Below, piece by piece: positions 15,501 to 38,507 of a stretch of DNA of 38,507 nucleotides (positions within the stretch are counted from its first letter, which is position 1; each line of letters starts with the position of its first letter). The notes under the pieces were generated by a model that saw nothing but the letters and a program-made list of their open reading frames with translations, did not search any database and was not told the origin of the DNA. Source of the stretch: a virus (taxonomy: Duplodnaviria; Caudoviricetes); IMG/VR virus record IMGVR_UViG_3300008255_000242, positions 1-38,507 of that record. One strand, 5' to 3'. The position numbers were made by a program, and so were the translations under genes.

Positions 15501-16569
15501 TCGGATCACCAGCTGGCGGCTCTGTGGGGGCGTCCGGCGCCGCATCAGGTGCCTTTGCGGTGTTTGCCTTGATTGCATTGCCGGCCGCATCAGCTGCGGT
15601 GATGGCCGTGTTGGTCAATCCTGAACCGATCAGCGTTGCAATCGCCGTCTGATAAGCGGCCATCGGGCGCTCATTCATGTAGTCGTCGACTGTCTTCTCA
15701 GGATGCAGGGCGCGCCATGACAGGAAGTCCTGCGAGAACGTCGCGACCTGTTCACCCACCTGCTCCTGCGCAAGCGACGTCAGCAGCCGGCGGGTCAGCG
15801 ACTTGCCGGCCGGGGATCCGAGGATCGTCTCCATCGGCAGTTTCTCGGTCGCGTATTCCACAAGCCCGACCGATGCCGAATACACGAGGCGATCCGTCTT
15901 ACTCAGGTTCTTCCCCGAATCCATCGCATCAAGGTTTGCCTGCCCAGCCGCCATGGCCGAGCCGGCACCAAGCGCGACGCCGGGCTGGCGTGTCTTCCAT
16001 GCGACAGCAATATAGGGCGCCAGCTGCGCGAACGATTGTATGCCGGACTGGATTGCGGCCTCAGTCGGATCATCAGAAACCGGGGCGGCGTCAAGCTGCT
16101 CCTGAAACTTATTGGCGCTGGCGTATGCTTCGGCGGCTTCCTTCTCCATACCGACGGATTCGAACAGCATGCCGGATGCTGAATCCATGCCGGCAAGTCC
16201 GCCGACGATGCCGCCGCCTACCGCGTTAGGAACAGTCTCTGTCCAGAGTTTTTCCCATTCGGCGCGCTGGACGTCAGCTTGAGATGCTGCCTCCTCCGGG
16301 GAATACCCATCCGACTGCAGACGACGGATCGCATTCTTGTGCATCTTATTCCGGGCGTACCCCAGGAAGGCGTCAACGGCACCGCCCTTTTTCTCCTCGG
16401 CTGCGGGCGTCTGCGCTTCGGGCGTGGATGCCTCGGGGGCAACCGGCGCTTCCTTCGGCTTCGCGGCCTCGTCTTCAGCTGCGATCTCCGCATCCATTCC
16501 AGAGAGAACGCTCTGAAGACGTTGGCGGCGCTGTGCCTCATAGGCAGCATCTGCAGCGTTAACGGGCAT
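9556..16569 (-). CDS. giant internal virion (ejection) / polyvalent protein with two ART-like domains, a zincin-like motif and HTH motifs
   Basis: ~2337 aa following two other internal virion genes; LYHGT...GIYLT twice, HELGIH, LuxR-like HTHs; ATG 16569 after GAGGAG. Confidence 0.8.
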   Translation of the reverse strand: MPVNAADAAYEAQRRQRLQSVLSGMDAEIAAEDEAAKPKEAPVAPEASTPEAQTPAAEEKKGGAVDAFLGYARNKMHKNAIRRLQSDGYSPEEAASQADVQRAEWEKLWTETVPNAVGGGIVGGLAGMDSASGMLFESVGMEKEAAEAYASANKFQEQLDAAPVSDDPTEAAIQSGIQSFAQLAPYIAVAWKTRQPGVALGAGSAMAAGQANLDAMDSGKNLSKTDRLVYSASVGLVEYATEKLPMETILGSPAGKSLTRRLLTSLAQEQVGEQVATFSQDFLSWRALHPEKTVDDYMNERPMAAYQTAIATLIGSGLTNTAITAADAAGNAIKANTAKAPDAAPDAPTEPPAGDPTPEAPAAENAPQEPAAAQEAEPEAEADTFEAQAQRMQDAIDAAAAEVGETTEIDAIIDRNPDVQGMAPDDSTAASSFEAEYNALLGLAPKALPAPVVEPAAEQDPAVPGPQTTPFRAIFGEQAAPTIVEQAEVAEIAAVTEATTKKYFGRKSFGGQGLTQTETEADVIATPEPVAPADETPALLSDDEITRIADRETVEVPEAADAESMLTLAEANYDEVVGKDMLTALDDQFDYMPKQVREIMDAALDGEGSTKRFNTLMKRVAKIRSQMAKPAVQEDFKALVAQQPEAGEGGLGRSFQSLVDEAKDPKLARGDHLSELRDGMTQRRNTLHLSALRSFGQWYAELAKTGRIGFVSDMQEISPELPVDTLAVTSNDGRVLINDNVLPEIMEGLILHELGIHAGLGAIMGFRGRQAILDSVERLVQSKDASAVVARERAQRNSLQPQHIAEETLAYLVQYAPRSPIVTRAIATMKVWLARRFPAVIGRLNWTTADFRQLALLSIRHQAYRALELPVIFRRGLEGDGTTLVLSTPRTTLTFGNSPSPRLLERVRSVIDLKKPQDFQQAVAANAEDLTDPNVMEALFTVHPEFDPFLYQDLVEQVANTGDPDAAHDLSKLLEPLKGMDIPLDVLASRDENGFERPVGFDDEAARGNEPFSHPDLTDLQNRVVEKALNGFSNAEIAEIEDSTVDSVANMLSVARRIGIQIPVAAYKQAGNDRLRIEGLIDSGLSNKVIAERTGKTTNHVAQVRFQMKKRVDADMAMDDASRLARAASLGFDTGRTLYHGTPNPIQGDVLRQSRDGLFGAGIYLTRNEETARTYATGGEASVIPLYVRGRLASFEDAKAARTMAAKQVGNVMNADQKIAAVTQQLLQNAGFSGVEAGDTVTMFDFKDVRSTEARFDPRRDGQRGFMLARGDAQFETPGSPEYQEAVRKGLDMSTEARMERAQAMGFDTDTVLYHGTGADIAGFRASQSGTRGRGIYLTPKPDVAAKYAVSTNKDAMLLFSEPGSEGAVMPTHIRGKIFPDESSSIMSDADFAAIVAAADPSHQAKLRQVFEGDGAFPKTFRKVIANAAETEEGRNALLEAAGFAGRSGRSQITADAEIMIFDPKNIRSVHAAFDPDLTTSPNLLASRSDGTQSDMFDPYADPDVYVNLARVEGPEDFRALVQELANKSRDAVNEKIGRKRTLDQVEREAAGEEAFNVLMKRRKGNILNDREMLALRQLRDASATKIREIAAVVEQNPSRAAKAALHRALILHRTIQAEVSGASADASRLLGSLRIMSKAKTGRIGEINDALDNWATEENVDELVKRIGRLGKNQEVELDDLLHIGFKQAWTDLGGAWIRAMFLSNPKTHGVNALGNMMVQAMDVGSTFIGGALTFDQQMMSEAGIRAAEMTDAFYHQFRYMAKHSQLNPLKEGTSVRFDDMNVSGRQVDAGSPRALSAGRVNSLTGGLLKNPSEDSIVGRTINLIGYGIAAPSEALGVADDMFKGVNYRVEMRALAWRQANAELRDGRISKDELAQRVEEIIEEPTDDMVLASRKAAQERTFTNRPGPLTMGVLRFRRALNNVTGLPIGHLLLPFVITPSNIFSYTFRHLPTAGFFPEWRADYQAGGPRRARAVGQVAMGTSVMMLGMSLGAAGVMMGSGPDDREKRRLLQENQGLGFQPFSIRAHGHTYTVDRLDPVSSMLLIGAELNEIWANKGWDSEPDDQFGDLLFASAINIGRMMLEKSYMTGVRDFIRALEDENFAKSYFARTSAAVTTPAVGAEVRRQVDPFWREADTAITAIKNRIPTLSSELPMEYDMFGRPKVYQSGHGVVYDSLMPFIAKKVDPEPIDNELLRLKFMPSQMDRSLGVPVAGQRIPVNLRDRPDIYSRMTQLMGGDKELGLPSVMDKLNILVSAPGYGALMDGPQPLEGSKAAMIRDVITEHRSLVRQIVTQEYWGDLQKMGRDELGRMMERTAEQEEADQSAMAEATMRALAQEK

Positions 16570-18310
16570 TATCCAAGCTCCTCTCGATTTCATCCAGAAG
16601 AAGCAGTTCTTCTGCGAGTTTCAGGCGCGCTTCCTCAGTGGAGGGGTCAGCGGCGCCGGTCGCCGTCTCTCTCATGTCAGGCCCAACGACCCGCAGAATT
16701 GCACGGTAATCTTGCTTGATCCGCTCACGGGCGGACGCGATTTCTTCGGGTTTCGGCGGAAAACCAAACGCGCCCGACGGAAGGTAAGATGAACGCTCAG
16801 CCAGGACCGACGACGCACCCATACCGGACAGGATGGCGTCTGTTTGGTCTGACACTTCCCGGGCATTCGGAGTGTGATCGAGCCCGGCAAACCACTGATC
16901 GAGCTGGTCGAGCGCTTGCACCTTTCGGGTGGCCAGCTGCTGCGACGTGCTCATGTCGGCCATCGCGCCCTCTTTGAACGCGGCCTCGATACGATCAACG
17001 CCCGTCTTGCGAACCTTGTTGCCGGTCTTCTCGATCTCGTCGATCAACTGGTCACGCTGGGTGCTCGTGAATTCACGCATCTCGAGCACCTGGTCGACAT
17101 CAAGCTCATTGCGCATCGCCATGATGCGGTACTGAGTGAAGGCCGTGTCGCCGACACCCTTGTTCGACGTCTCGTCATAGACCGAGGAAAGCAATGTCCC
17201 ATAGCGCGGACCCGTCACATAGGGACGCGCCTTGCGTACAGCCGCCAGCTTCTCTTCGGTGGTGGCGGTCGGGCTATTCAGGACGTCAGAGGCGCGCTTG
17301 TCGTACTCATCGCCAAGTTCTTCGAGCTGGGCCTTGCGGGCCTTCTCGGCCGCCTCCTGCTCTGCGAGCACGGCATTGCGGTTTTGCTGAAGAAGGTTGA
17401 CCTCCTGGCGCAGCGCGGCGCGCAGGGACTCCCGCTCCTTGGCCGTTCCCTTCCGGGCCGCCGCCGTGTCGTCAGCGAACTGCAGGGTAGCGGCATAACC
17501 CTTGTCCTTGAAGTGGCTTTCGATCGTCGGCAGTGAACTCGACACGGCCATGCGGACACGGAAAGCGCCATCCTCTTCGTCGGCCTGTTCCTGAGAATAC
17601 CCATAGAGCGGGTTGCCGACCTTGATCGCGCGCTGGTCGGCCAGCTCGCCCATCATCTTGACGACGTCATCATCCAGCAAGGCGGCCGGGCCGCGCTCCC
17701 TCAGGATCGCGTCAATGCCGTCTTCAGCGGACGAGATATTGGCGTCCATGGTTTGCTTGGCTTCAGCCAGGACCGCCGCCTGCCGATCGGCTGCGACCTT
17801 CCCGCGATACTCCTGCTGCGCCGTGTCCAGTTCGTAGAAGACTTCCTCGGCGAAATTCGGGTCTACGCTCTCGCCAAGCCCTTCGCGGAAGGCGATCATC
17901 CCCGCGTCAAACTTTTCCACATCGCCGAAGTTTTCCGGATCGGCGCGCAGTTCTGCGGCCTTGGCCTGGATGTCAGACTTCGAGCGCTGAAGGTACAGCG
18001 TCTCAACCATGTTATTGTACGCCTGATCGCCAAGCGTCTGTAGGCCCAAGCCCCGCTCACGCTTGGCAAATTTGCCCAGGTTGTCAGCACCGATATCTTC
18101 CGCGAACTGATCGCGGTCGTTGAAGTCCTTCAGCGCATCCTTCTTCGCCTGCTTGACCGCGCGGGCGTCGATGACGGATCCGATCTTCTGGGCAGCGCCG
18201 GCCAACTTGTCGAACATGGACGCCGCTTCGGCATCGGCGACACCCGCTCCGCGAATCTGCCCGGGCGCGGTGATCGCCCTTCCCTGGATGTCTGGCAAGC
18301 CGTCTGGCAT
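16559..18310 (-). CDS. internal virion protein
   Basis: Alpha-helical 583 aa ORF at the gp15-equivalent position. Confidence 0.6.
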   Translation of the reverse strand: MPDGLPDIQGRAITAPGQIRGAGVADAEAASMFDKLAGAAQKIGSVIDARAVKQAKKDALKDFNDRDQFAEDIGADNLGKFAKRERGLGLQTLGDQAYNNMVETLYLQRSKSDIQAKAAELRADPENFGDVEKFDAGMIAFREGLGESVDPNFAEEVFYELDTAQQEYRGKVAADRQAAVLAEAKQTMDANISSAEDGIDAILRERGPAALLDDDVVKMMGELADQRAIKVGNPLYGYSQEQADEEDGAFRVRMAVSSSLPTIESHFKDKGYAATLQFADDTAAARKGTAKERESLRAALRQEVNLLQQNRNAVLAEQEAAEKARKAQLEELGDEYDKRASDVLNSPTATTEEKLAAVRKARPYVTGPRYGTLLSSVYDETSNKGVGDTAFTQYRIMAMRNELDVDQVLEMREFTSTQRDQLIDEIEKTGNKVRKTGVDRIEAAFKEGAMADMSTSQQLATRKVQALDQLDQWFAGLDHTPNAREVSDQTDAILSGMGASSVLAERSSYLPSGAFGFPPKPEEIASARERIKQDYRAILRVVGPDMRETATGAADPSTEEARLKLAEELLLLDEIERSLDNAR

Positions 18311-27250: not shown

Positions 27251-27680
27251 CGGTTTCCTCGAATGCGGGAACGGCTCCTGAGCGTATAAGATCGCGGTAT
27301 AAGGCTATCGGCCGGAACGCACGGCTCCGAACCCCGACGAGGCGGGCGATGGTCTGTGTGCACCAGTTGCCGATCCTGGCATTGTATGGATCCCCGAATT
27401 GCTGGTCGATGCGGAGGATCCTGACCTTGTGCATGTAGATCTCGGTCAGCACCGGCCGCACCATGTGGTCAGGCACCACCGAGATTTCATGGCGGTGCAG
27501 TTTCGGGTCGACGAACAGCCAGCAATCGAGCGGCTTCAGGTAGGCGAAGGCCATGACGTGGCGCGCCCATCTCGGTGACAGGCGATCAAACCAGTCCTCC
27601 TCCTCGCGCTCGAGGAAGGCGACGTACCAGATCGAGGGCTGGAATGAGCCGGAAAGACGGATTTGATCGCTGTCGGCCAT
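27168..27680 (-). CDS. hypothetical protein (possible His/Cys peptidase fold)
   Basis: WYVAF...RHVMAF...WLFVDP...WCT; coupled to the DHH gene. Confidence 0.5.
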   Translation of the reverse strand: MADSDQIRLSGSFQPSIWYVAFLEREEEDWFDRLSPRWARHVMAFAYLKPLDCWLFVDPKLHRHEISVVPDHMVRPVLTEIYMHKVRILRIDQQFGDPYNARIGNWCTQTIARLVGVRSRAFRPIALYRDLIRSGAVPAFEETDEHQDQGAGDQGRPGNEETEGAGGSPC

Positions 27681-28642
27681 CAGTCGCCGTCCCAGCCAAG
27701 GCGCATGGTGAAGCCGGCCGCGTTCTTGTGACCCCCGCCGCCATACGCTTTGGCGATTTCGGAAACGTCTGCGCCGCCTTGCTTGTCATCGCTGCGCAGC
27801 GAGAAGACGCGGCCTTCAGGGGTGTCCCAATAGCAGGCAGCAAAGGGTGGAGTGACGATTTCGCCTTGCAAATTCGGCGAGGCATATGGTTGGCACATCA
27901 GGTGCCCTGCATCGCTGGTCAGCGTGTAAGGCAGATTTGCCACCGGAACCCACTGCCCGCCGATAATCATCTCTTGGCGCAGCTTGGCGACCAGCTCGGC
28001 CACGTCCTTGTGGTGTTTCAGTTCGATTGCGCGGCCGCCAGCAGCCGCGTCGGTACGATCTGTCTCGAGGATGGCATTAATTTTTTGCCAGTTATCGAAC
28101 GTGTAGGGGTGCGCAAAGATGAACGCGTTCACCTCGCGCGACTGGTCGAGGGTGAAACGCCAGAGATCCCTGTCTTCGACATACCGAACGATGTTTGGCC
28201 GCGCATCGTTCGGATGCAGGAAGTCCCAGGTAATGCCAGCGCCGGACCGCTCCATATCAAACACCGTGTAAATGCGGCACCCGGCGTTTTCCATCTCGTC
28301 CTGCATGAGGTTCTCCTCATAGCGGGGCCAGTCTAACCGGTCAGTCCACTTGCTCATGGCCGTGAAAATCCCGCCTTGCACTAGATCGGATTCAGCCGTC
28401 TTGTGGTGATCGAGCACGAGGATTGAATAGGCGCTCTTTGCCATCTCCTCCAACACGGCGCGCTTGTAGCTGAAGTCCACGATGACGACGTTCTTGCCCT
28501 TCACATCCGGCGGGCTTTCGCCGTACACGCCGGGGATGTACTGAACCTCATCACCGAACCTCTTCCAGACAGCCCAGGCTGCGGTGAAACCATCGGCGCA
28601 ATTGCCGTGGTAAATGCAAATATCGGGTTTCATCTTGGTCAT
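27680..28642 (-). CDS. DHH/DHHA1 family phosphoesterase (NrnB-like)
   Basis: YHGNCADG, VDFS, LDHHKT, EDRDLW, GGGHKNAAGF. Confidence 0.9.
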   Translation of the reverse strand: MTKMKPDICIYHGNCADGFTAAWAVWKRFGDEVQYIPGVYGESPPDVKGKNVVIVDFSYKRAVLEEMAKSAYSILVLDHHKTAESDLVQGGIFTAMSKWTDRLDWPRYEENLMQDEMENAGCRIYTVFDMERSGAGITWDFLHPNDARPNIVRYVEDRDLWRFTLDQSREVNAFIFAHPYTFDNWQKINAILETDRTDAAAGGRAIELKHHKDVAELVAKLRQEMIIGGQWVPVANLPYTLTSDAGHLMCQPYASPNLQGEIVTPPFAACYWDTPEGRVFSLRSDDKQGGADVSEIAKAYGGGGHKNAAGFTMRLGWDGD

Positions 28643-30493: not shown

Positions 30494-31171
30494 TCAGCTG
30501 TCGCCGCCATATTTGTAGAAGGATTCGAACGCCTCGGCCGCGGCAACAATGTCCGCCAGCGGCATGTGATTGTGCATCTTGGCGTACTTGAAAGCGTCCC
30601 GAACCGCCTGCATCCGCATCGCGTCCTCGGGCTCCAGGCCCCATGCCAGGGCATACCCGGAATAATCGGTCACCCGGTCAACCAGAGATCCGCCCACCGC
30701 CATCGCAGACTTCAGGTCATCGTCCAGTGCCGCAACCGTCGCATCCTCGTGGGCAGCAACAAGCTGGTGGGCCTGAAACTGTGCATACGCCTCGGCCGCC
30801 TTTTGGCGCTCATCAGGTGTTCCAAAGAACGTCGCCGTGATCAGTACTCCATCCGATGTCGTGAATTCAGTCTCCGTCCAGGACCCGCACTCGGTCAGCT
30901 TCACGGTATGCGGCTCGGATCCAATGTACCGGGTTGTCACACCGGACGGCTCGCCAGACGTCACGCCCTCGACGAACTCACCCCCCGGACCAGCAGGCAG
31001 GTCACCATCCCGCCCGGAACCGTAAGCCCCCCCACCCACACTTCCTGCCGGCGCAGCCGGGTCAGCCTTCGCAAACGCTTCAGCAAACTCCCGCTCATTC
31101 GCAGCCAATTCCTCGATCGATCCAATTACAGGATCCTCATCACCATCAACCTGTTCGTTATCGCCGCTCAT
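30494..31171 (-). CDS. hypothetical acidic protein
   Basis: ATG 31171 after GGAGTGAGG. Confidence 0.6.
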   Translation of the reverse strand: MSGDNEQVDGDEDPVIGSIEELAANEREFAEAFAKADPAAPAGSVGGGAYGSGRDGDLPAGPGGEFVEGVTSGEPSGVTTRYIGSEPHTVKLTECGSWTETEFTTSDGVLITATFFGTPDERQKAAEAYAQFQAHQLVAAHEDATVAALDDDLKSAMAVGGSLVDRVTDYSGYALAWGLEPEDAMRMQAVRDAFKYAKMHNHMPLADIVAAAEAFESFYKYGGDS

Positions 31172-31631
31172 GAGCCTCACTCCCTGATTTGTGTAAGACC
31201 GATAATTCCGATTTTTTTGATTAATGCAAGAGCCATGAGCCAAACATCAGGGATTTATACCCCGCCCATTAATTATGGATAACCAGACCGTTACCATCAA
31301 ACCTGCAGTAAACACTGGAATGGCCGATAATTCCGCTATTCCCGATACAAACCCGGAATAACAACCGATTTTATCTCATATTCCGCTTTAAGGTAGTCTA
31401 ACCCCCGCGTTTGAGCAGACCAGACCCCGGTATTTGGTAACCACAGAGTGAAACATGGCTATAGGGGGGAATAAAAAGTTGGGGGAGATACCCATCGAGC
31501 CCGGGAGGGGCGCGGATTTTGCCCCCCGGGTGGCATTTTGAGAGACCCCCACCCCCTCCCTGGTTTCGTTCTGACACTATGCAGGCAGTCAGAACGTCAG
31601 GCCGGATCACCTGCAATTGCTGCAGGTTGCG

Positions 31632-32144
31632 CTATGTCTGCACGTCTGATGCTGTATCACTATGCTTACGTGATGCGCCGCGCACCACCATCACCAGCTT
31701 AGACGCATCGCCGCGCCGCGATCCCCCGTCCTGATTGCGTAACGTCTCCCGGTATTGATTGGCCGTCTGGTGCGGGAACCTGTTGTCGCCACGGGTGATT
31801 GCCTGCTGCTGAGCTGTATCGATCCACGCCAGGGCTAATGCACGTGCGCGTGTGGCCGCTTGTGCCAGTTCAGGGAAGGTCACCTTCCACTCTTCCCAAT
31901 CATTCGGATTAATCGAAAGCGCTGCGGTTATTGCAGCTTCCGTTGATCCAAGCGCGCCCAGTGCAGTGACCTTGTCCGGCAGGTCTGGCGTGTATTCAGT
32001 CTGTTGCGGTGGCAATGTGCCGAGTATGGCGTCAGGCGCGTGGACAGCGAGGAGCTGCTTTAGCTGCTGCACTTCGCGCTCCAGCTCGTCGCATTGCGCT
32101 TTTAGCTGTTCCTCGCGTGCACGCTTCATTGGCTGGCCTGACAT
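31632..32144 (-). CDS. terS: probable terminase small subunit
   Basis: EYTPDL...G.T...I...L.I....WEEW...FPE..A..RAR HTH-type pattern, upstream of terL. Confidence 0.6.
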   Translation of the reverse strand: MSGQPMKRAREEQLKAQCDELEREVQQLKQLLAVHAPDAILGTLPPQQTEYTPDLPDKVTALGALGSTEAAITAALSINPNDWEEWKVTFPELAQAATRARALALAWIDTAQQQAITRGDNRFPHQTANQYRETLRNQDGGSRRGDASKLVMVVRGASRKHSDTASDVQT

Positions 32145-32254
32145 TGTCTCTGCTCCTCCGCGCTACGCGCTCTCTAGTGCTCTTGATGCTTCAATAGATG
32201 CAGCGGTGTTCCTGTTCTGTCCATATGCGGTGGCCTTCACATCGGGAATTCCGA

Positions 32255-32283
32255 TTGACTTTTACTGATTTATTGGATATATT
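32255..32283 (+). promoter_or_regulatory. strong sigma70 promoter of the early operon
   Basis: TTGACT-17 nt-TATATT. Confidence 0.8.
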
Positions 32284-32290
32284 TGGATCA

Positions 32291-32328
32291 TGGAGCGGCA
32301 GACTGATGTGCTCCAGGCTCTTTGACAT
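32291..32328 (+). promoter_or_regulatory. hairpin plus boxA-like antitermination element
   Basis: TGGAGC...GCTCCA hairpin followed by GCTCTTTGACAT (compare rrn boxA TGCTCTTTAACA). Confidence 0.6.
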
Positions 32329-32339
32329 CGTTAGGGAAT

Positions 32340-32433
32340 ATCGAAACACGCGAGGCGGGGCTCTCTCCAGCCATGTCTAAACCGCTCGTGTGTCTGTTCG
32401 GGGTAAGCGCCCGGGCACTGATGAGACAGCTTA
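32340..32433 (+). ncRNA. type II hammerhead ribozyme 1 (predicted cleavage after 32394)
   Basis: TC-GAAA-CACGCGAG...CTCGTGTG-TC / TGTTCGGG-loop-CCCGGGCA-CTGATGA-GA; loop TAAGC pairs with tail GCTTA. Confidence 0.85.
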
Positions 32434-32451
32434 AAAATGGAGACTTAGACC

Positions 32452-32520
32452 ATGTTTTGGACTCTTGGTTACGTTGGCGTCATCGCCTTTCTGTTGATTT
32501 GCAGCAGGTTGGCGCGATGA
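32452..32520 (+). CDS. 22-aa hydrophobic peptide
   Basis: MFWTLGYVGVIAFLLICSRLAR after an AATGGAGA RBS. Confidence 0.55.
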   Translation: MFWTLGYVGVIAFLLICSRLAR

Positions 32521-32618
32521 TCGCCAGCGCTCTTATCTGGCTGGGTTTCGCCTTGGCGCTTGTCGCCTGTGGCTGGCACCTGGTTGACGTGGCGGGATAC
32601 GTTCCGCCTGATGAATAG
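32517..32618 (+). CDS. 33-aa membrane peptide
   Basis: ATGA-coupled; MIASALIWLGFALALVACGWHL...; TAG overlaps ribozyme 2. Confidence 0.55.
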   Translation: MIASALIWLGFALALVACGWHLVDVAGYVPPDE

Positions 32619-32685
32619 TCGAAACGGGCCTTAACGGGCCCGTCATTGCAGGATTTGCCGCCTGCAGTCTGATGAGACAGGCAAA
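32618..32685 (+). ncRNA. type II hammerhead ribozyme 2 (cleavage after 32644)
   Basis: GTC-GAAA-CGGGCC..GGCCCG-TC / ATTGCAGG..CCTGCAGT-CTGATGA-GAC; pseudoknot TTTGCC/GGCAAA. Confidence 0.92.
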
Positions 32686-32709
32686 CCCCACTAAATGGAG
32701 ATTGTGACC

Positions 32710-32970
32710 ATGTGCTATGAAGTAGCCAAAGAGATGCAGAGCGTTCTGATTGCCCATCACCGGGAAGCAAGCGCCGCGCTTCGCGCCGTTCCTGGTATCA
32801 GCTCGGGCTCTATGGGCCTGACGCCAGACGCGGTGAAGGCATCGCCAGCATACAGGGAAGCCCGTGAAGATTATCACGCATGCCATGAGGCACTAGGCCG
32901 GTTTAACCGGTGGTTTTTCAAGCAATACAAGGCCGAGATACGCGCCGAACGACGCGCCATCTTTGCCTAG
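32710..32970 (+). CDS. hypothetical early protein
   Basis: AATGGAGA RBS; GLTPDAVKASPAY motif; TAG overlaps ribozyme 3. Confidence 0.75.
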   Translation: MCYEVAKEMQSVLIAHHREASAALRAVPGISSGSMGLTPDAVKASPAYREAREDYHACHEALGRFNRWFFKQYKAEIRAERRAIFA

Positions 32971-33034
32971 TCGAAACCGGGTTTCGGCCCGGTCTGCCAT
33001 GGGTTCGCGGCCTGGCGCTGATGAGACACGCGAA
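32970..33034 (+). ncRNA. type II hammerhead ribozyme 3 (cleavage after 32994)
   Basis: GTC-GAAA-CCGGGT-TTCG-GCCCGG-TC / TGCCA..TGGCG-CTGATGA-GAC; pseudoknot TTCGCG/CGCGAA. Confidence 0.9.
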
Positions 33035-33051
33035 ACAATGGAGATTACGAC

Positions 33052-33339
33052 ATGACAGCAACCACACTAGCCCGCCCTTTGGGGGGCATACAATGGTTTA
33101 TAGTCGGCGAAGGCGGTGGCGAATGCTGCATATACCGCCACCGCAACGGGCCTGATGTGCTTTTGCACATGCGCCATTGCGACGGCGCAAAGGAATTGCT
33201 CGCACTTCTAAATGAGGGCAACGGGCTCGCCGCTTTGGCCTTCCTGCAGCGCTTGGCGCCGCCTAAATCGCCGCTCTTGGCCTGGTCACTACGGCAGGCA
33301 ATCCCGGACATGCGGCTACTTATCGATCTTTACAATTGA
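33052..33339 (+). CDS. hypothetical early protein
   Basis: AATGGAGA RBS; fills the space between ribozymes 3 and 4. Confidence 0.7.
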   Translation: MTATTLARPLGGIQWFIVGEGGGECCIYRHRNGPDVLLHMRHCDGAKELLALLNEGNGLAALAFLQRLAPPKSPLLAWSLRQAIPDMRLLIDLYN

Positions 33340-33341
33340 GA

Positions 33342-33404
33342 GTCGAAACCCTCGCAAGAGGGTCTGTAGGGGCCTAACCCGCCCTACACTGATGAGACAG
33401 GGTT
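33342..33404 (+). ncRNA. type II hammerhead ribozyme 4 (cleavage after 33364)
   Basis: GTC-GAAA-CCCTC-GCAA-GAGGG-TC / TGTAGGG..CCCTACA-CTGATGA-GAC; pseudoknot AACCC/GGGTT. Confidence 0.92.
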
Positions 33405-33424
33405 TATTCAATGGAGACTACACA

Positions 33425-34210
33425 ATGAGCAATACTTATCGCTTTTCCGCTGACCTATTCCGCACGGTTTACCGCTTCGCATCGAAAGAGAAGACGCGGT
33501 ATTATCTTAACGGGGTTTGCATTCAGCAAGCGCCTAAGGGCCAGCCTGGCGTTGTCATGGTGGCAACAGACGGCGCAAAGATGATTGTTGCATATGATCC
33601 GAAAGGATCAGCCCCCGCCGGTGAAGGCGTCATAGTTCGCACTGAAGGCCACAAAGTGCCCGGCTCTAACTTCCGGGACAACACTAAGCTGGGTTCCAGT
33701 GTGGAGCGTGTCGCAATCCTGGACATGGGCAAGCGTGGCGCGGGTGATGCCTACGCTGCAAGCCTGGTTGATTGCTGGACCGATAAGGACGGCAACAGCG
33801 AGGAGCTGCCAGCGTCGGCGCATGTGTTTGAACACGTCGACGGCACGTTTCCAGATTGGGCGCGCATCATTCCCAACTTTGGGAATTGCGCTCCCGTCGA
33901 CAACGCCAGCGTGTTCAACGCGAAGCAATTGAAAGTGTTTTGCGATGCTGCGTCAGACTTTCAACGCAACGTCAGAACACCGGCAATTTCAGTCTGGGCT
34001 AAGTCGCCCGCTGACCCTGCCTTGGTGACCTTTGGCATTGTCCTGGAACGTGGCCGCGACTTGTTCGGGGTTCTGATGCCTATCAGGTCTGAGGCTGGCG
34101 AAGCTGCGGACCGTGGCGCGCCTGACTGGACGAAAGGGCATGACCTGCCTGCAATCGCCAGTGAAGAAACCGTGACCCTTGAGGCGGAAGCCGAACGGAT
34201 CGCGGCCTAA
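33425..34210 (+). CDS. DNA polymerase III beta-clamp-like protein (partial clamp fold)
   Basis: TRYYLNGV, MVATDG, DGTFPDWARIIP, FNAKQL and GVLMPIR match DnaN middle and C-terminal domain motifs. Confidence 0.8.
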   Translation: MSNTYRFSADLFRTVYRFASKEKTRYYLNGVCIQQAPKGQPGVVMVATDGAKMIVAYDPKGSAPAGEGVIVRTEGHKVPGSNFRDNTKLGSSVERVAILDMGKRGAGDAYAASLVDCWTDKDGNSEELPASAHVFEHVDGTFPDWARIIPNFGNCAPVDNASVFNAKQLKVFCDAASDFQRNVRTPAISVWAKSPADPALVTFGIVLERGRDLFGVLMPIRSEAGEAADRGAPDWTKGHDLPAIASEETVTLEAEAERIAA

Positions 34211-34281
34211 GTCGAAACGCGGGCCCTTTGGGGCTCGCGTCTGCCAGCACCTGCCCCCGCTGGCACTGATGAGACAGGGGC
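34211..34281 (+). ncRNA. type II hammerhead ribozyme 5 (cleavage after 34241)
   Basis: GTC-GAAA-CGCGGGCCC-TTTG-GGGCTCGCG-TC / TGCCAGC..GCTGGCA-CTGATGA-GAC; pseudoknot GCCCC/GGGGC. Confidence 0.92.
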
Positions 34282-34307
34282 CTTTTCTATAAATGGAGAC
34301 TGAACAC

Positions 34308-34886
34308 ATGACCGAGATTCGGATTTATGCGGCCTGCCTGGCGTCTTACAACAACGGGCGCTTGTACGGCCAATGGATTGATTGCGCGGGCAAGGATGCC
34401 GATGATCTGCAGGAAGAGGTTAGCGCCATGCTTGCCGCTTCCCCAGAGCCTGACGCGGAAGAATGGGCGATTCATGATTACGAATGCCCATCGGCCTGGC
34501 GCTCTCACTTTTCCGAGTTCATGGGGCTGGACAAGGTCGCAACCTTTGCGGCCCTGGCTGATCTCATGGCAAGCGGTGACCACTATGCCGCCGGTGTTGC
34601 AATTGCGCTTGATCGCATGAACGGCGCCTGGGACGCGGCAGACGTGGAACGCTGGATCGATGACCACTATGCGGGAGAGTCCGACAACGGGCCCGCAGAT
34701 TGGGTTGAGAACTGGCTTGAAGAAACCGGCGGCCTTGAAGGTGTGCCGGAAAACCTCCGCAATTACTTCGATTTTGAGGCATACGCCCGGGACTGCTCAA
34801 TGGGTGATATCGATTTCGTAGACAGTGAAGGCGACACCGTGCGCCATGACTCCCGCGAAAGCTGTTATGCCTTTTACTCGAACTAG
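34308..34886 (+). CDS. ardA: antirestriction protein ArdA
   Basis: RIYAACLASYNNGRLYGQWID, EEWAIHDYE, NYFDFEAYARD; highly acidic, as expected of a DNA mimic. Confidence 0.92.
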   Translation: MTEIRIYAACLASYNNGRLYGQWIDCAGKDADDLQEEVSAMLAASPEPDAEEWAIHDYECPSAWRSHFSEFMGLDKVATFAALADLMASGDHYAAGVAIALDRMNGAWDAADVERWIDDHYAGESDNGPADWVENWLEETGGLEGVPENLRNYFDFEAYARDCSMGDIDFVDSEGDTVRHDSRESCYAFYSN

Positions 34887-34948
34887 TCGAAACCCCGCTT
34901 CGGCGGGGTCTGGTGAGACTGGCCGCTCGCCACTGATGAGACAGGCCG
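34886..34948 (+). ncRNA. type II hammerhead ribozyme 6 (cleavage after 34910)
   Basis: GTC-GAAA-CCCCGC-TTCG-GCGGGG-TC / TGGTGAG..CTCGCCA-CTGATGA-GAC; pseudoknot TGGCC/GGCCG. Confidence 0.92.
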
Positions 34949-34976
34949 CAACCCTCAACAATGGAGACTTAACCGC

Positions 34977-35213
34977 ATGTTTGATGCACTCAAAATGGTG
35001 CGCCTCATTTCCGGCCTGGCGATTACTGCCAGCGGTGCCGGCTCTCTCACCTTCGCCTTTGATCTGCACTTCATCGCCGGCTTGCTGGCATGGGGTGCAA
35101 CCATGCTCGCCGGGTTCTGGACCGTTGGTGTCCTGATCGATCGTGACGAATGCGAGGACGTGGATTCAATCCTCGACGCTGAAGCAGAGAGAGGCGAGCG
35201 CACACAATCCTAG
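34977..35213 (+). CDS. small membrane protein with acidic tail
   Basis: AATGGAGA RBS; two hydrophobic segments. Confidence 0.7.
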   Translation: MFDALKMVRLISGLAITASGAGSLTFAFDLHFIAGLLAWGATMLAGFWTVGVLIDRDECEDVDSILDAEAERGERTQS

Positions 35214-35216
35214 ACT

Positions 35217-35286
35217 GTCGAAACGCCGGGCCGCGCGCCTGGCGTCCGGGGAGGGCTGGCCGCTTTCCCGCTGATGAGACAGGCCA
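35217..35286 (+). ncRNA. type II hammerhead ribozyme 7 (cleavage after 35246)
   Basis: GTC-GAAA-CGCCGGG..CCTGGCG-TC / CGGGGAGG..CTTTCCCG-CTGATGA-GAC; pseudoknot TGGCC/GGCCA. Confidence 0.9.
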
Positions 35287-35301
35287 ACAATGGAGATTGT
35301 G

Positions 35302-35478
35302 ATGAAAACCCAAGCCGTGAAAATGGTTTGCAGCAATTGCGGTAGCGATGACGTCACCCGCGACGCTGTAGTGCGCTGGAGCATTCAAAGCCAGCAATGG
35401 GAAGTATCAAACGTATTTGACAATTCCGACTGTGAGGCATGCGGCGAAACCCGCCTTTCTGAAGTCGTCGTTGAATAG
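35302..35478 (+). CDS. small Zn-ribbon protein
   Basis: CSNCGS...CEACG; AATGGAGA RBS; TAG overlaps ribozyme 8. Confidence 0.75.
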   Translation: MKTQAVKMVCSNCGSDDVTRDAVVRWSIQSQQWEVSNVFDNSDCEACGETRLSEVVVE

Positions 35479-35539
35479 TCGAAACCGGGTTCCGGCCCGG
35501 TCTGACGCCTTGAGCAAGCGTCACTGATGAGACAGCTCA
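35478..35539 (+). ncRNA. type II hammerhead ribozyme 8 (cleavage after 35502)
   Basis: GTC-GAAA-CCGGGT-TCCG-GCCCGG-TC / TGACGC..GCGTCA-CTGATGA-GAC; pseudoknot TGAGC/GCTCA. Confidence 0.92.
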
Positions 35540-35557
35540 CTAAATGGAGACTGCACT

Positions 35558-36106
35558 ATGACAGCAAGAAAGCAATTCACCGTCGCTCTGACATGGGCCA
35601 CGGTGGCGCTAAGCGTCGGATTTGCCCTGATGGGATTCATCGATCAGGCATACACTGCGGCGCGTGTGGCGGCGATGTTCGTCACGCTGGCAATCTTTTC
35701 CTGGTTCCTTTCCGAAACGGTAGAGACCTATCTCGAACACCGGACGGCGAAGAACTGGCGGCAATGGACGACGCTCACCATGGGCCTGGTCCTGTTTGTC
35801 GTGGAAGTGCACCTTGTCCACTACGGCCTGGCGTGGCTGTTCGGGAATGTGGGACTCGTCGCGCTCTATGCAGCGTCGGCGGGCTTCTCGTTCCTGACCG
35901 TCACCGCCAAGGCCAACTATGGCAAGACATACACCGAGGCGGAAACAGCGACGCCAGAGGCTCCGGCCTTCACCGTCGATATGGAGCCGCAATGGGTCAT
36001 GCAGCCCGTGACGTTCGAGACTGCCGAGATTGTCCCGCTTCGCGGCGATCTCTCAGCGGTGGCTGACCGTCTGGAACGTGTGGCCGGACTTCGCGTCACT
36101 GCCTAG
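35558..36106 (+). CDS. multi-pass membrane protein
   Basis: About four hydrophobic helices; AATGGAGA RBS. Confidence 0.75.
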   Translation: MTARKQFTVALTWATVALSVGFALMGFIDQAYTAARVAAMFVTLAIFSWFLSETVETYLEHRTAKNWRQWTTLTMGLVLFVVEVHLVHYGLAWLFGNVGLVALYAASAGFSFLTVTAKANYGKTYTEAETATPEAPAFTVDMEPQWVMQPVTFETAEIVPLRGDLSAVADRLERVAGLRVTA

Positions 36107-36178
36107 CGGTGCGCCGCGTCGGGGAAACCTGGCGCGGCCATCCGGTGCGCAGTGCACCGAACAATGGAGACGAAACAC

Positions 36179-36358
36179 ATGGCAAATCCCAAGGACTTTA
36201 TCGAAGCCGAACGCGCCGCCGAGCGCATCGAGCAAGCCGCCGCAAATCTCACCGCTGCTCTGATGCGTGTAGAGGCCCGGCTCGCTGGTGCGGTGGCTGT
36301 CCTGGCCAAGCTGGACCAACCAGCGGCCAACGTGAGCCCGATCAAGTCGCCGAACTAG
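36179..36358 (+). CDS. small coiled-coil protein
   Basis: AATGGAGA RBS at 36163; MANPKDFIEAER... Confidence 0.65.
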   Translation: MANPKDFIEAERAAERIEQAAANLTAALMRVEARLAGAVAVLAKLDQPAANVSPIKSPN

Positions 36359-36372
36359 TCGACACCCCATCA

Positions 36373-36415
36373 CCCCGTCGCGATCCTTAACCGGATTGCG
36401 GCGGGGTTTCTTTTT
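36373..36415 (+). terminator. Rho-independent terminator ending the early operon
   Basis: CCCCGTCGCGATCC-TTAACC-GGATTGCGGCGGGG followed by TTTCTTTTT. Confidence 0.85.
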
Positions 36416-36441
36416 GCCCGAAATTCAGGCATTAAACCGGG

Positions 36442-36702
36442 ATGGGACGGATTCTGGCTTTACTCGCTGCATTATTCCTGGTCATCGCCCCCTGGGCACT
36501 TGGCCGGGACTGGCGGGACATGGCGCTCGCCGCCCTGATCTCGGTGCCGTTCTGGCTCATGGTTTTCATCAGGCGCTCAAACGAAGACATCGCTGATGAA
36601 CTGTCTCGCTTACCGTCGGCCCGGCCAGGTGCCCCTGTGGCCCGGATTTACCGGGAGGGGCCGGATGGCGAGATCTACCACGAAGACCGAGAAATTCGCT
36701 AG
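36442..36702 (+). CDS. small membrane protein
   Basis: Two hydrophobic helices and a charged C-terminus. Confidence 0.5.
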   Translation: MGRILALLAALFLVIAPWALGRDWRDMALAALISVPFWLMVFIRRSNEDIADELSRLPSARPGAPVARIYREGPDGEIYHEDREIR

Positions 36703-36794
36703 GAAGCCCGCACAGAGCGATTTGCTGATTTGGTCACTCCGGTGTGGCTGAGGCCAAAAATGCTCGCCACGAGCCTCCGCTGTTCGATTATCGC

Positions 36795-37196
36795 CTATTC
36801 TGGCTTCTCATCACCCCGTGACATGTTCCAGCCACGCCTCCAGGCATGCCTCAGGGCCGTCTGGTCACGTCCATACGGGCAGGCATCGATCGAGCGCCCG
36901 ATCATCTCCGCGTGGTAACCGTCATCCGTCGCCGCCTCGATACGCATCGGCAGCGAGCTTATCGGCTTCTCGTCAAGGCGGATCAGGTCGAAGGCAACCG
37001 GCGAATGGACTGCACGTAAGAGATCGGCGCACTCGGATAGCCGCAGATATTGCAGACGTGGATCATCGGTGGAATACCCAATGGCTTCGACGATGGCGTC
37101 TCGCGAGATCCCGTCTTCGGTGGCACTGGTGACGGCGGCGTTGAGGGCGTTGAGGGCAAGTCGTAGCTGGTCGACGCGGGGGAGAATCCGCCGCAT
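36795..37196 (-). CDS. hypothetical protein with an Rmf/CrpP-like C-terminal motif
   Basis: DGY......DACPY......AWRRGW; start moved to ATG 37196 after GGAG. Confidence 0.5.
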   Translation of the reverse strand: MRRILPRVDQLRLALNALNAAVTSATEDGISRDAIVEAIGYSTDDPRLQYLRLSECADLLRAVHSPVAFDLIRLDEKPISSLPMRIEAATDDGYHAEMIGRSIDACPYGRDQTALRHAWRRGWNMSRGDEKPE

Positions 37197-37621
37197 GTGT
37201 CGCTGGCGTCTCCGGGCCTGACTCTCAGGCTCAGTGTGAACCGCGTCTCGTTCGGGTAAATCTCCCGCGTCTCCTTGTTGCGGTGCTGACGGATTGTCGA
37301 CTGGTTGTCCACCGGCATCACCTGCCGGGCCGTCTCCTCGTCCACCAGGAGCAGCTTCAGCTTGTAGTGCTCCATCAACCACATCAATGTCGGGGTGACG
37401 TTTACCGGGCTTTGCTGGTCGTCTCCGGCCACTGCCTTTTGATTTATTCGGAAGGGACGCTTTCCCCATTTCTTGTCTCCTGCTTCAATCTTGCCAAGGT
37501 GGCCATGGGTCAGGTTGACCGCGTGTTCGACTTCTTCCTGCAGCATCTCGAGATCCGCGCGCCGTTCGGACAGCGCCTGGCTCATATCGACTTCGGTGAG
37601 AATCGAACGGATGAAGTTCAT
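36983..37621 (-). CDS. XRE-like HTH protein
   Basis: RRADLEMLQEEVEHAVNLTHGHLGKIEAG; ATGA-coupled to the GcrA-like gene; C-terminus overlaps the next ORF. Confidence 0.5.
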   Translation of the reverse strand: MNFIRSILTEVDMSQALSERRADLEMLQEEVEHAVNLTHGHLGKIEAGDKKWGKRPFRINQKAVAGDDQQSPVNVTPTLMWLMEHYKLKLLLVDEETARQVMPVDNQSTIRQHRNKETREIYPNETRFTLSLRVRPGDASDTCGGFSPASTSYDLPSTPSTPPSPVPPKTGSRETPSSKPLGIPPMIHVCNICGYPSAPISYVQSIRRLPST

Positions 37622-38139
37622 GACAGCGCCACCTTCATGCTGACCGGCTTCCGCCTCAGCGTCGCGGCCGACATGTGCGAGACGCTGGCAACGCGGTGAC
37701 CCTCGCAATATGCGGAGCCCTCGACCGAGGGCCCACCGCAAAACATGTGCGGCAAGCGCTCTGTCACGGCCCACTTGCATCGCCGGTCGTTGAGTTCCGG
37801 GAACGGTATGGGTGGCGCATCATGCACCACCACCGGAACAGGTGGAGGCGGCGGGGGTGGAGGCGGTGCCACGATAGCCTCCAGCTTCTGCTTCGGCGTT
37901 GGGCGAGGCGCCTTGCCGGCACGCCTTCCCTTCCCGGACTTGCGGTCCTCGAGCCCCAGCTTCGCCCGGTTGCGGTAAACCAGGCCGCGAACGGATGACA
38001 CCGTGATCTTGCGGCCGAACTGCTGCGCAAACATGGCGACAATCTCGGGCGCAGCTTTGCCGTCGTTCCACGCAACCCTCAGCGCTTCGAGTTCTGCGGC
38101 GCACTGGCCAATCGGTCTTGCTGTTCCGGTCTGGGTCAT
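37618..38139 (-). CDS. gcrA: GcrA-like cell-cycle regulator
   Basis: N-terminal W..G....EI......SVRGLVYR, Pro-rich linker, C-terminal ELNDRRCKW...FCG.P...GSAYCEGH. Confidence 0.8.
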   Translation of the reverse strand: MTQTGTARPIGQCAAELEALRVAWNDGKAAPEIVAMFAQQFGRKITVSSVRGLVYRNRAKLGLEDRKSGKGRRAGKAPRPTPKQKLEAIVAPPPPPPPPPVPVVVHDAPPIPFPELNDRRCKWAVTERLPHMFCGGPSVEGSAYCEGHRVASVSHMSAATLRRKPVSMKVALS

Positions 38140-38507
38140 GACGTTTCCTTTCCCCAATTTATCAGGCGTTCACGCGACTCCGGATCCAGGAAATAGCCCT
38201 GTCCATAGACGGTTCGGATCTTGAGGCCGTATGGCTTCAGCACCTTGCGCAACCGGCACATGCGAACACTGACGATCTTGAGCGACGCATCCGCGCAAAC
38301 ACCGCGCGTTGAACCGGCCGCCATCAGGTAATCGAGTGTGCAGAACGTCCGGCCCACAAGCGCAGCCAGCGTGGATCGCTCGCCCGGCGACAGTTGCCAT
38401 TCCGGCGGGCACATCCAGGCGTCATTGCGAAGCAGCGCGTAGACCTGGGGCAACTCCTCGCGCAGTTCCTCGACCTGATTTCGCAGGTGGACCTCGACGT
38501 GCTCGGC
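38136..38507 (-). CDS. winged-helix (OmpR/CtrA C-terminal-like) DNA-binding protein, 5'-truncated by the window
   Basis: LSPGE..LA.L...KIVSVRMCRLRKVL....IRTVYGQGY; frame stays open to the window end. Confidence 0.7.
   Translation of the reverse strand, partial: AEHVEVHLRNQVEELREELPQVYALLRNDAWMCPPEWQLSPGERSTLAALVGRTFCTLDYLMAAGSTRGVCADASLKIVSVRMCRLRKVLKPYGLKIRTVYGQGYFLDPESRERLINWGKETS

What the first reader, a model, noticed from the sequence alone, without database searches (positions are those of the whole stretch)
32340..35539. Eight type II hammerhead ribozymes punctuate a phage early operon that includes the anti-restriction gene ardA
Seen in sequence: every spacer from 32340 to 35539 reads (G)TC-GAAAC-[stem III]-GTC^-[stem I]-CTGATGA-GAC-A-[tail]...AATGGAGA-start. 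Established knowledge: CUGAUGA, GAAA, the G10.1-C11.1 and A15.1-U16.1 pairs and a GUC triplet form the complete hammerhead core, and this order is the type II permutation. Stems I and III differ between copies yet stay paired, so structure rather than sequence is conserved. Predicted cuts fall after 32394, 32644, 32994, 33364, 34241, 34910, 35246 and 35502. They would release RNAs of 250, 350, 370, 877, 669, 336 and 256 nt plus a ~910-nt final piece, most carrying one gene. Inference: the phage processes its early polycistronic mRNA without host RNases, as a ribozyme counterpart of RNase III processing of T7 early mRNA. Type II hammerheads are known from bacteria and prophages; I cannot tell from here whether a regular eight-copy, one-per-cistron array has been described.
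Basis: partly seen in the sequence, partly recalled or inferred. Interest (0 to 1): 0.95.

Follow-up and report, generated by a model that had tools for sequence, protein, structure and literature searches.

The report
Eight hammerhead ribozymes framing swappable genes
Eight intact hammerhead (self-cutting RNA) sequences sit between the small genes of one phage operon and likely cut its transcript into hairpin-capped, mostly single-gene messages, a layout published for prophages in 2011; close relatives of this phage gain and lose whole genes at these same repeats, so they likely double as gene-swap joints.

Summary
Observation confirmed. Eight type II hammerheads (Rfam RF02276) with perfect cores lie at the stated places; cut sites, fragment sizes and ardA are correct. 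It also missed a sigma70-like promoter, a terminator and a ~105-nt leader piece. This scan has found such arrays many times on other DNA, and I found a nine-copy array, so eight is no record. New here: four related contigs carry 6-7 ribozymes at the same locus. Two strain pairs that are 99% identical differ by whole gene cassettes whose ends lie in the repeated ribozyme or ribosome-binding words. Ribozyme halves are re-paired while stem I keeps its pseudoknot tail in 33 of 34 copies. No RNA data exist for this phage, so cleavage, timing and purpose are inferred. Verdict: new member of a known kind, with good evidence for an added gene-shuffling role.

The parts
32255..32283 (+). sigma70-like promoter (10 of 12 consensus, 17-nt spacer); predicted start near 32290
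   Evidence: 3 promoter-like sites found, 2.9 expected, so not significant alone; spacing and -10 box kept in L218 and G001
32290..32394 (+). predicted ~105-nt first cleavage product: 5' hairpin, conserved leader, long stem III with conserved loop
32340..32433 (+). hammerhead 1; cut after 32394; 2-bp stem II; long loop III; pseudoknot 32404-32408 with 32429-32433
32452..32618 (+). two tiny hydrophobic ORFs (22 and 33 aa, overlapping stop and start), no family
   Evidence: the split is also in an independent run (X5)
32618..32685 (+). hammerhead 2; cut after 32644; 6-bp pseudoknot
32710..32970 (+). g2, 86 aa, phrog_7560 unknown function
32970..33034 (+). hammerhead 3; cut after 32994; 6-bp pseudoknot
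33052..33339 (+). g3, 95 aa, no family; absent from L217, L218, G001, G002
33342..33404 (+). hammerhead 4; cut after 33364; 5-bp pseudoknot
33425..34210 (+). g4, 261 aa, likely stand-alone beta-clamp-like protein
   Evidence: phrog_947 processivity factor E 4e-8; best PHROG is phrog_3007, labelled RusA-like; ESM Atlas clusters with PF02767 at 0.96-0.97
34211..34281 (+). hammerhead 5; cut after 34241; 5-bp pseudoknot
34308..34886 (+). ardA anti-restriction gene, 192 aa
   Evidence: PF07275 E 3.6e-34, phrog_2059
34886..34947 (+). hammerhead 6; cut after 34910; 4-bp pseudoknot
34977..35213 (+). g6, 78 aa hydrophobic protein, no family
35215..35286 (+). hammerhead 7; cut after 35246; 5-bp pseudoknot; stem II can extend to 5 bp
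35302..35478 (+). g7, 58 aa zinc-ribbon-like (phrog_32296); variable slot holding other genes or none in relatives
35478..35539 (+). hammerhead 8; cut after 35502; 5-bp pseudoknot
35558..36106 (+). g8, 182 aa hydrophobic (likely membrane) protein
36107..36160 (+). ninth junction: two hairpins, no ribozyme
   Evidence: z -4.0; near-identical in L217 and L218; no Rfam hit
36179..36358 (+). g9, 59 aa, no family
36372..36417 (+). intrinsic terminator-like hairpin (15 bp) with T run
31632..32144 (-). terminase small subunit-like gene, divergent from the unit (context)
   Evidence: phrog_309 E 4.6e-7

Best explanation
The eight pseudoknotted type II hammerheads likely cut one ~4.1-kb host-polymerase transcript, probably made early, into mostly single-gene RNAs, each predicted to start with a 5'-OH on a hairpin and end in a hairpin with a cyclic phosphate, and the repeated ribozyme and ribosome-binding words likely also serve as crossover points through which whole genes are gained, lost and exchanged. 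Shown: motifs, pairing, cut geometry (55-66 nt from cut to start codon, 24-33 nt from stop to cut), and cassette-wise differences between strains. From established chemistry (recalled): 5'-OH and 2',3'-cyclic phosphate ends. Inferred: cleavage in the cell, longer-lived and context-independent messages, early timing, and recombination as the cause of the swaps. The type II order suits both jobs: stem III stays on the upstream piece, stem I plus pseudoknot on the downstream piece, and the near-invariant stem II lets almost any upstream half work with any downstream half after a crossover.
For: Core invariant in 8 of 8; stems differ in sequence but pair. Pseudoknot: cognate mean 5.1 bp against 2.7 for non-cognate pairs; 2 of 40,320 permutations reach the observed total; at least 4 bp in 34 of 34 ribozymes of the clade. 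Perreault 2011 showed this pseudoknot gives fast cleavage and that like arrays cut in vitro and in E. coli. End hairpins -6.6 to -20.9 kcal/mol. RiboJ, a synthetic ribozyme-plus-hairpin leader, raises mRNA about twofold and protein 2-10-fold (PMC6206723). Swaps: G001/G002 are 99.2-99.4% identical with no large indel over 15.9 kb, yet differ by an 827-nt g4 cassette with a 14-nt shared word in the ribozyme core and by a replaced last ribozyme. L217/L218 (99.5% over 6.1 kb) differ by a 509-nt cassette ending at the RBS word. Run X4 has a contig joining 34291 to 34960, without ardA, at a 10-nt shared RBS word; X2 and X4 carry other genes after ribozyme 7. 15 stem III and 13 stem I families occur in 22 combinations, and stem I keeps its own tail in 33 of 34.
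Against: No cleavage or expression data for this phage. Whether cutting stabilises or destabilises the pieces is unknown; in glmS, cleavage triggers decay (PMC6765202). Predicted RBS accessibility did not rise consistently after cutting: 2 up, 2 down, 4 unchanged of 8 (no pseudoknots in the model). Breakpoints must be intergenic anyway, so lying in spacers is expected; only their match to shared words points to recombination. One of the four large differences in the two near-identical pairs (a ~150-nt insert in L218) is not bounded by the main repeat words. One crossover (G002 copy 5) split stem I from its tail. The X4 joint rests on one contig at depth 3.5 with 33 letters on the short side, and L217 has single-base indels that look like sequencing errors. 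Repeat-bounded differences can also be assembly artefacts; reads were not available.
Confidence: 0.75

Rival explanations
1. Cleavage is real but serves to shorten or tune expression: the pieces decay at different rates, or cutting uncouples translation and destroys the long transcript, giving a brief pulse of anti-defence proteins.
For: glmS precedent, and the review's suggestion of differing stabilities or translation efficiencies. Hairpin strengths differ more than twofold among pieces. A temperate phage (integrase) might need these genes switched off quickly.
Against: Both ends of every piece are hairpins, and 5'-OH ends are poor substrates for 5'-end-dependent RNase E in Proteobacteria (recalled). 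RiboJ raises output.
Confidence: 0.15
2. The released pieces re-form a hammerhead from their own two ends, because stem II is nearly the same in all copies, and ligate into circular mRNAs or re-join in new orders.
For: Each piece carries the 3' half of one ribozyme and the 5' half of the next; stem II pairs 1-2 are invariant in 28 of 28 distinct copies. Tertiary contacts raise hammerhead ligation rates 2000-fold (PMC6155905).
Against: Only 2-3 bp plus the core would hold the two ends together. Perreault 2011 looked for circular and spliced products and found none (data not shown).
Confidence: 0.06
3. The motifs are selfish or neutral repeats kept mainly as DNA recombination joints; cleavage is incidental.
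For: Clear cassette and module exchange.
Against: Copy-specific pseudoknots and paired but divergent stems are constraints on RNA folding and reduce DNA identity between copies. All copies lie on the coding strand at a fixed distance from stop and start codons.
Confidence: 0.04

Closest known systems
Clustered hammerheads flanking single prophage genes (Perreault et al. 2011, PMC3088659): Agrobacterium tumefaciens triple array around ardA; two-ribozyme sets in Azorhizobium caulinodans and Clostridium scindens
   Same: Ribozymes between small, variable phage genes, ardA among them; type II fold with loop I/tail pseudoknot described in the same paper; proposed single-gene mRNA processing.
   Different: Eight copies in one delimited unit against two or three tested there (Figure 3 is not held, so the largest array pictured is unknown to me). 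Strain-level cassette gain and loss at the ribozymes is not mentioned in the sections I read.
Rfam Hammerhead_II (RF02276)
   Same: All eight match the full model.
   Different: Four score below the gathering cut-off (30.5-36.8 bits against 37); copy 1 has a ~30-nt loop III insert.
PeSL promoter-stem-loop cassettes of T4-type phages RB49 and phi1 (Arbiol et al. 2010, PMC2839356; abstract read)
   Same: Repeated regulatory elements between non-essential genes that mediate modular shuffling.
   Different: The repeats here are ribozymes and RBS words under one promoter, with shared words of only 5-14 nt; no mini-circles were tested.
RNase III processing of T7 early mRNA (recalled); synthetic RiboJ insulator (PMC6206723)
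   Same: Processing yields hairpin-ended, context-independent messages.
   Different: Protein-free and natural. T7 ends are 5'-phosphate, here 5'-OH (recalled chemistry). RiboJ is engineered and sits only at the 5' end.

Membership tests
Hammerhead ribozyme, type II | Core C3-A9 (CUGANGA), G12-A14, A15.1-U16.1 pair, NUH triplet | tested here: met
   8 of 8
Hammerhead ribozyme, type II | Stems I and III closed by loops, stem II open (at least 2 bp) | tested here: met
   stem III 6-10 bp, stem I 5-8 bp, stem II 2-5 bp; RF02276 full-length hits
Hammerhead ribozyme, type II | Pseudoknot between loop I and the 3' tail | tested here: met
   4-6 Watson-Crick bp in 8 of 8; 2 of 40,320 permutations
Hammerhead ribozyme, type II | Self-cleavage | not testable with these tools
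   needs an in vitro assay; no RNA holder listed
Clustered prophage hammerheads (Perreault 2011) | Several ribozymes flanking single genes or short blocks in a phage or prophage, with variable genes | tested here: met
   phage with integrase, portal-like, capsid and tail genes; gene content differs among relatives
PeSL-type shuffling cassettes | Repeat made of a sigma70 promoter plus stem-loop terminator | tested here: not met
   one promoter-like site at the head of the unit, none in the spacers; works like PeSL, is not one
PeSL-type shuffling cassettes | Gene insertions, deletions and replacements with ends in the repeats | tested here: met
Integron/attC cassette array | attC sites and a dedicated integron integrase | not tested
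   no attC model was run; the crossovers seen fall at several different words, which fits homology-driven exchange better than one site

The most novel reading that the evidence does not exclude
A ribozyme-framed cassette system in which one element does three jobs: it cuts out single-gene RNAs; those RNAs re-close into stable circular mRNAs through their own ends; and the same halves act as interchangeable DNA joints, so phages trade anti-defence genes as ready-to-express units. The first ribozyme would also release a conserved ~105-nt small RNA whose anti-Shine-Dalgarno-like loop regulates translation. The DNA-joint part alone is probable (about 0.7); the full version with circles is not.
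Probability: 0.06. Interest if true: 0.85.

Novelty: new member of a known kind. Interest (0 to 1): 0.4.

Why it matters
What genome-encoded bacterial and phage self-cleaving ribozymes are for is still called open in the reviews I read (PMC6765202, PMC6155905). This unit is unusually clean: one promoter, eight perfect ribozymes, one terminator, and natural strain variants lacking single cassettes. It can be synthesised and tested in a laboratory strain to ask whether cleavage raises, lowers or equalises expression. The strain comparisons add a second, testable reason for such arrays: they make accessory genes, ardA included, exchangeable as self-contained expression units. A cultured phage with the same architecture (Roseobacter phage CRP-3, two copies) allows an infection test.

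Tried and rejected
No RNA holder listed for the region. Record size rejected: a nine-copy one-per-gene array is in L043/L044 (one contig) by my descriptor; Rfam supports only 4 of those 9, weakly (E 0.001-0.27). A general ardA-hammerhead link rejected: 2 of 80 ardA loci have a type II hammerhead, and none was found near ardA in phages Pasto and ProddE. 'Crossovers always avoid the core word' rejected: G002 copy 5 crossed over there. 'Cutting exposes the RBS' not supported. 'Arrays always sit beside the terminase' not supported: terL within 5 kb upstream in 4 of 14 outside arrays, 3 of them divergent, many loci truncated. Folding z-scores are weak (1 of 8 below -3), though stems I and III are recovered in 7 of 8. 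The loop III motif of copy 1 has no antisense target in the window at up to 3 mismatches, and 6 of 9 IMG/VR matches were chance hits without ribozymes. No other Rfam family in the L218 insert. terL and g8 found no relatives in IMG/VR. The nearest cultured phages are at most 32% identical in TerL. Felletti 2017 (PMC5785228) is not held. Six searches for later work on phage ribozyme arrays or ribozyme-bounded cassettes listed none beyond the papers cited; the library lacks most subscription papers, so absence from print is not shown.
Full report
Observation. Rfam RF02276 finds four above its cut-off in the window and all eight at E<=0.0033 in 31000-37000. My descriptor finds 8 on the + strand, none on the - strand and none in 30 block shuffles. 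In 4 of 7 internal junctions the last base of the upstream stop codon is the first base of stem II. Stop-to-cut is 24-33 nt and cut-to-start 55-66 nt. The same RBS word precedes the first gene behind each ribozyme and g9; 9 of its 12 + strand copies in the window are in this unit.

Pseudoknot. One base after stem II, every copy has 4-6 bases complementary to its own loop I. Cognate pairs average 5.1 bp and non-cognate 2.7 (8 of 56 reach 4 bp); 2 of 40,320 permutations reach the observed total. Perreault et al. 2011 describe this contact in type II hammerheads and show that breaking it slows cleavage 20- to over 100-fold (passages). This is the strongest sequence evidence that the copies are selected as active RNA.

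Context. The window is a 38.5-kb virus record, 85% complete, with integrase, portal-like, capsid, tail, amidase and terminase-like genes. A GcrA gene suggests an alphaproteobacterial host (inference). The array is its own unit on the + strand among - strand genes: a promoter-like site at 32255-32283 and a terminator-like site at 36372-36417. Neither count exceeds shuffles, but the promoter spacing and a 5' hairpin with changed but paired bases recur in L218 and G001. It lies head to head with the terS-like gene. Cargo: ardA, a probable stand-alone beta-clamp-like protein, a zinc-ribbon-like protein, and hydrophobic or unknown small proteins. 'Early' rests on the host-type promoter and ardA only.

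Relatives. Four contigs carry the orthologous unit next to terS: L217 (6 ribozymes), L218 (7), G001 (7) and G002 (6); L241 covers the first two. TerS is 80% and 54-55% identical to the window's. Among 34 ribozymes (28 distinct), 25 distinct copies have the exact core; two vary at the free position 7 and one has an AUU triplet. Stem pairing counts are partly built into the descriptor; the pseudoknot is not, and it reaches at least 4 bp in 34 of 34.

Gene content changes cassette by cassette. Against L218, the window's alignment blocks end at the RBS word or at the cleavage triplet: the first two ORFs, g3 and g7 are missing there and other genes are present. G001 and G002 lack ardA. G001 and G002 show no large indel over 15.9 kb at over 99% identity but differ by the 827-nt g4 cassette, bounded by a 14-nt shared word, and by the whole last ribozyme. 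The last ribozyme of G002 has the same stem I as L218's sixth. L217 and L218 differ by a 509-nt cassette at the RBS word and by a ~150-nt insert not bounded by the main words. So 3 of 4 large differences in the two near-identical pairs end in repeat words, and all four lie in the array. Contigs of runs X2 and X4 show two further genes in the slot after ribozyme 7 and another paired stem III on ribozyme 8; one X4 contig skips ardA RBS to RBS (low depth, 33-letter side). Fifteen stem III and 13 stem I families occur in 22 combinations, and stem I keeps its tail in 33 of 34, the exception being G002 copy 5. Caveats: these are assemblies, not reads; gene-preserving breaks must be intergenic; the recombination enzyme is unknown.

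Mechanism. Shown: anatomy and strain differences. Established (recalled chemistry, plus Perreault's tests): such RNAs self-cleave, leaving 5'-OH and cyclic phosphate. Inferred: the transcript falls into a ~105-nt leader, seven pieces of 250-877 nt and a ~915-nt last piece. Each begins with stem I (-6.6 to -12.9 kcal/mol) or ends with stem III (-9.6 to -20.9) or both, and would be protected and translated independently of its neighbours, as with RiboJ (passages). Independence from neighbours is what a shuffled cassette needs, which links the two roles. A test of RBS exposure on cutting gave no consistent gain. Destabilisation and circularisation remain rivals.

How common. Of 128 loci (flanks fetched for 80), 24 have two ribozymes, 5 three, 1 five and 2 nine (one contig). 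Of 109 GTDB loci, 11 have three to six. Cultured Roseobacter phage CRP-3 has two, flanking gp56. Earlier notes of this scan list hammerhead arrays of three to seven copies and an eleven-copy twister array on other genomes (unchecked); none is on a look-alike stretch.

Literature seen. PMC3088659: abstract, passages, sections 6, 11 (part 1 of 2) and 17, and a term search of the supplements; figures are not held and Dataset S1 was not read, so larger arrays may be listed there. Passages only: PMC6765202, PMC6155905, PMC6206723, PMC10085705, PMC13725137. Abstract only: PMC2839356.

Verdict. A real, unusually regular member of a kind described in 2011, with new comparative evidence that the repeats are also gene-swap joints. 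Interest 0.4.

Noticed in passing
window 32321-32384; L218 5442-5660; L238 6880-7110 (-): Ribozyme 1 has a long loop III with a motif kept in all three lineages, and a leader word just upstream is also kept. The loop pairs better with the leader (-12.1 kcal/mol) than with the RBS words (-8.7 to -9.6): a possible second pseudoknot or anti-Shine-Dalgarno small RNA. No covariation was available to test it.
   Followed up: partly
window 36107-36160: The ninth junction has two strong hairpins instead of a ribozyme (z -4.0), near-identical in L217 and L218; perhaps a processing or stabilising element.
   Followed up: partly
L218 8138-8290: ~150-nt structured insert (z -2.2) before a ribozyme, starting with a copy of the stem III hairpin of window ribozyme 4; no Rfam match; absent from the 99.5% identical L217.
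   Followed up: partly
window ribozymes 2, 4, 5, 6, 8: Predicted folds pair the 5' arm of stem II with the bases just after the RBS instead of with the ribozyme: a possible alternative fold. It is not kept in 3 of 7 G001 copies, so it may be chance.
   Followed up: no
L043 3640-6600: Nine hammerhead-like motifs, one per small gene, mostly without the pseudoknot and with GUA or GUC triplets.
   Followed up: partly
L361 2273-2995 (Roseobacter phage CRP-3): Two unannotated type II hammerheads with pseudoknots flanking gp56 in a cultured phage.
   Followed up: partly
L022 (between its 2nd and 3rd ribozyme): An ArdA-like ORF (by eye) between hammerheads in an unrelated phage record, downstream of terL.
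   Followed up: no
window 9556-16593 (-): 2345-aa internal-virion-like protein with an ART-PolyVal ADP-ribosyltransferase domain (E 4e-18), likely injected into the bacterial host.
   Followed up: no
window 27680-28642 (-): DHH phosphoesterase gene inside the packaging and head module, between terL and the portal-like gene.
   Followed up: no
window 36795-38157 (-): Genes with a ribosome modulation factor-like segment (PF04957, E 2e-10) and a GcrA-like regulator (PF07750) just beyond the unit.
   Followed up: no
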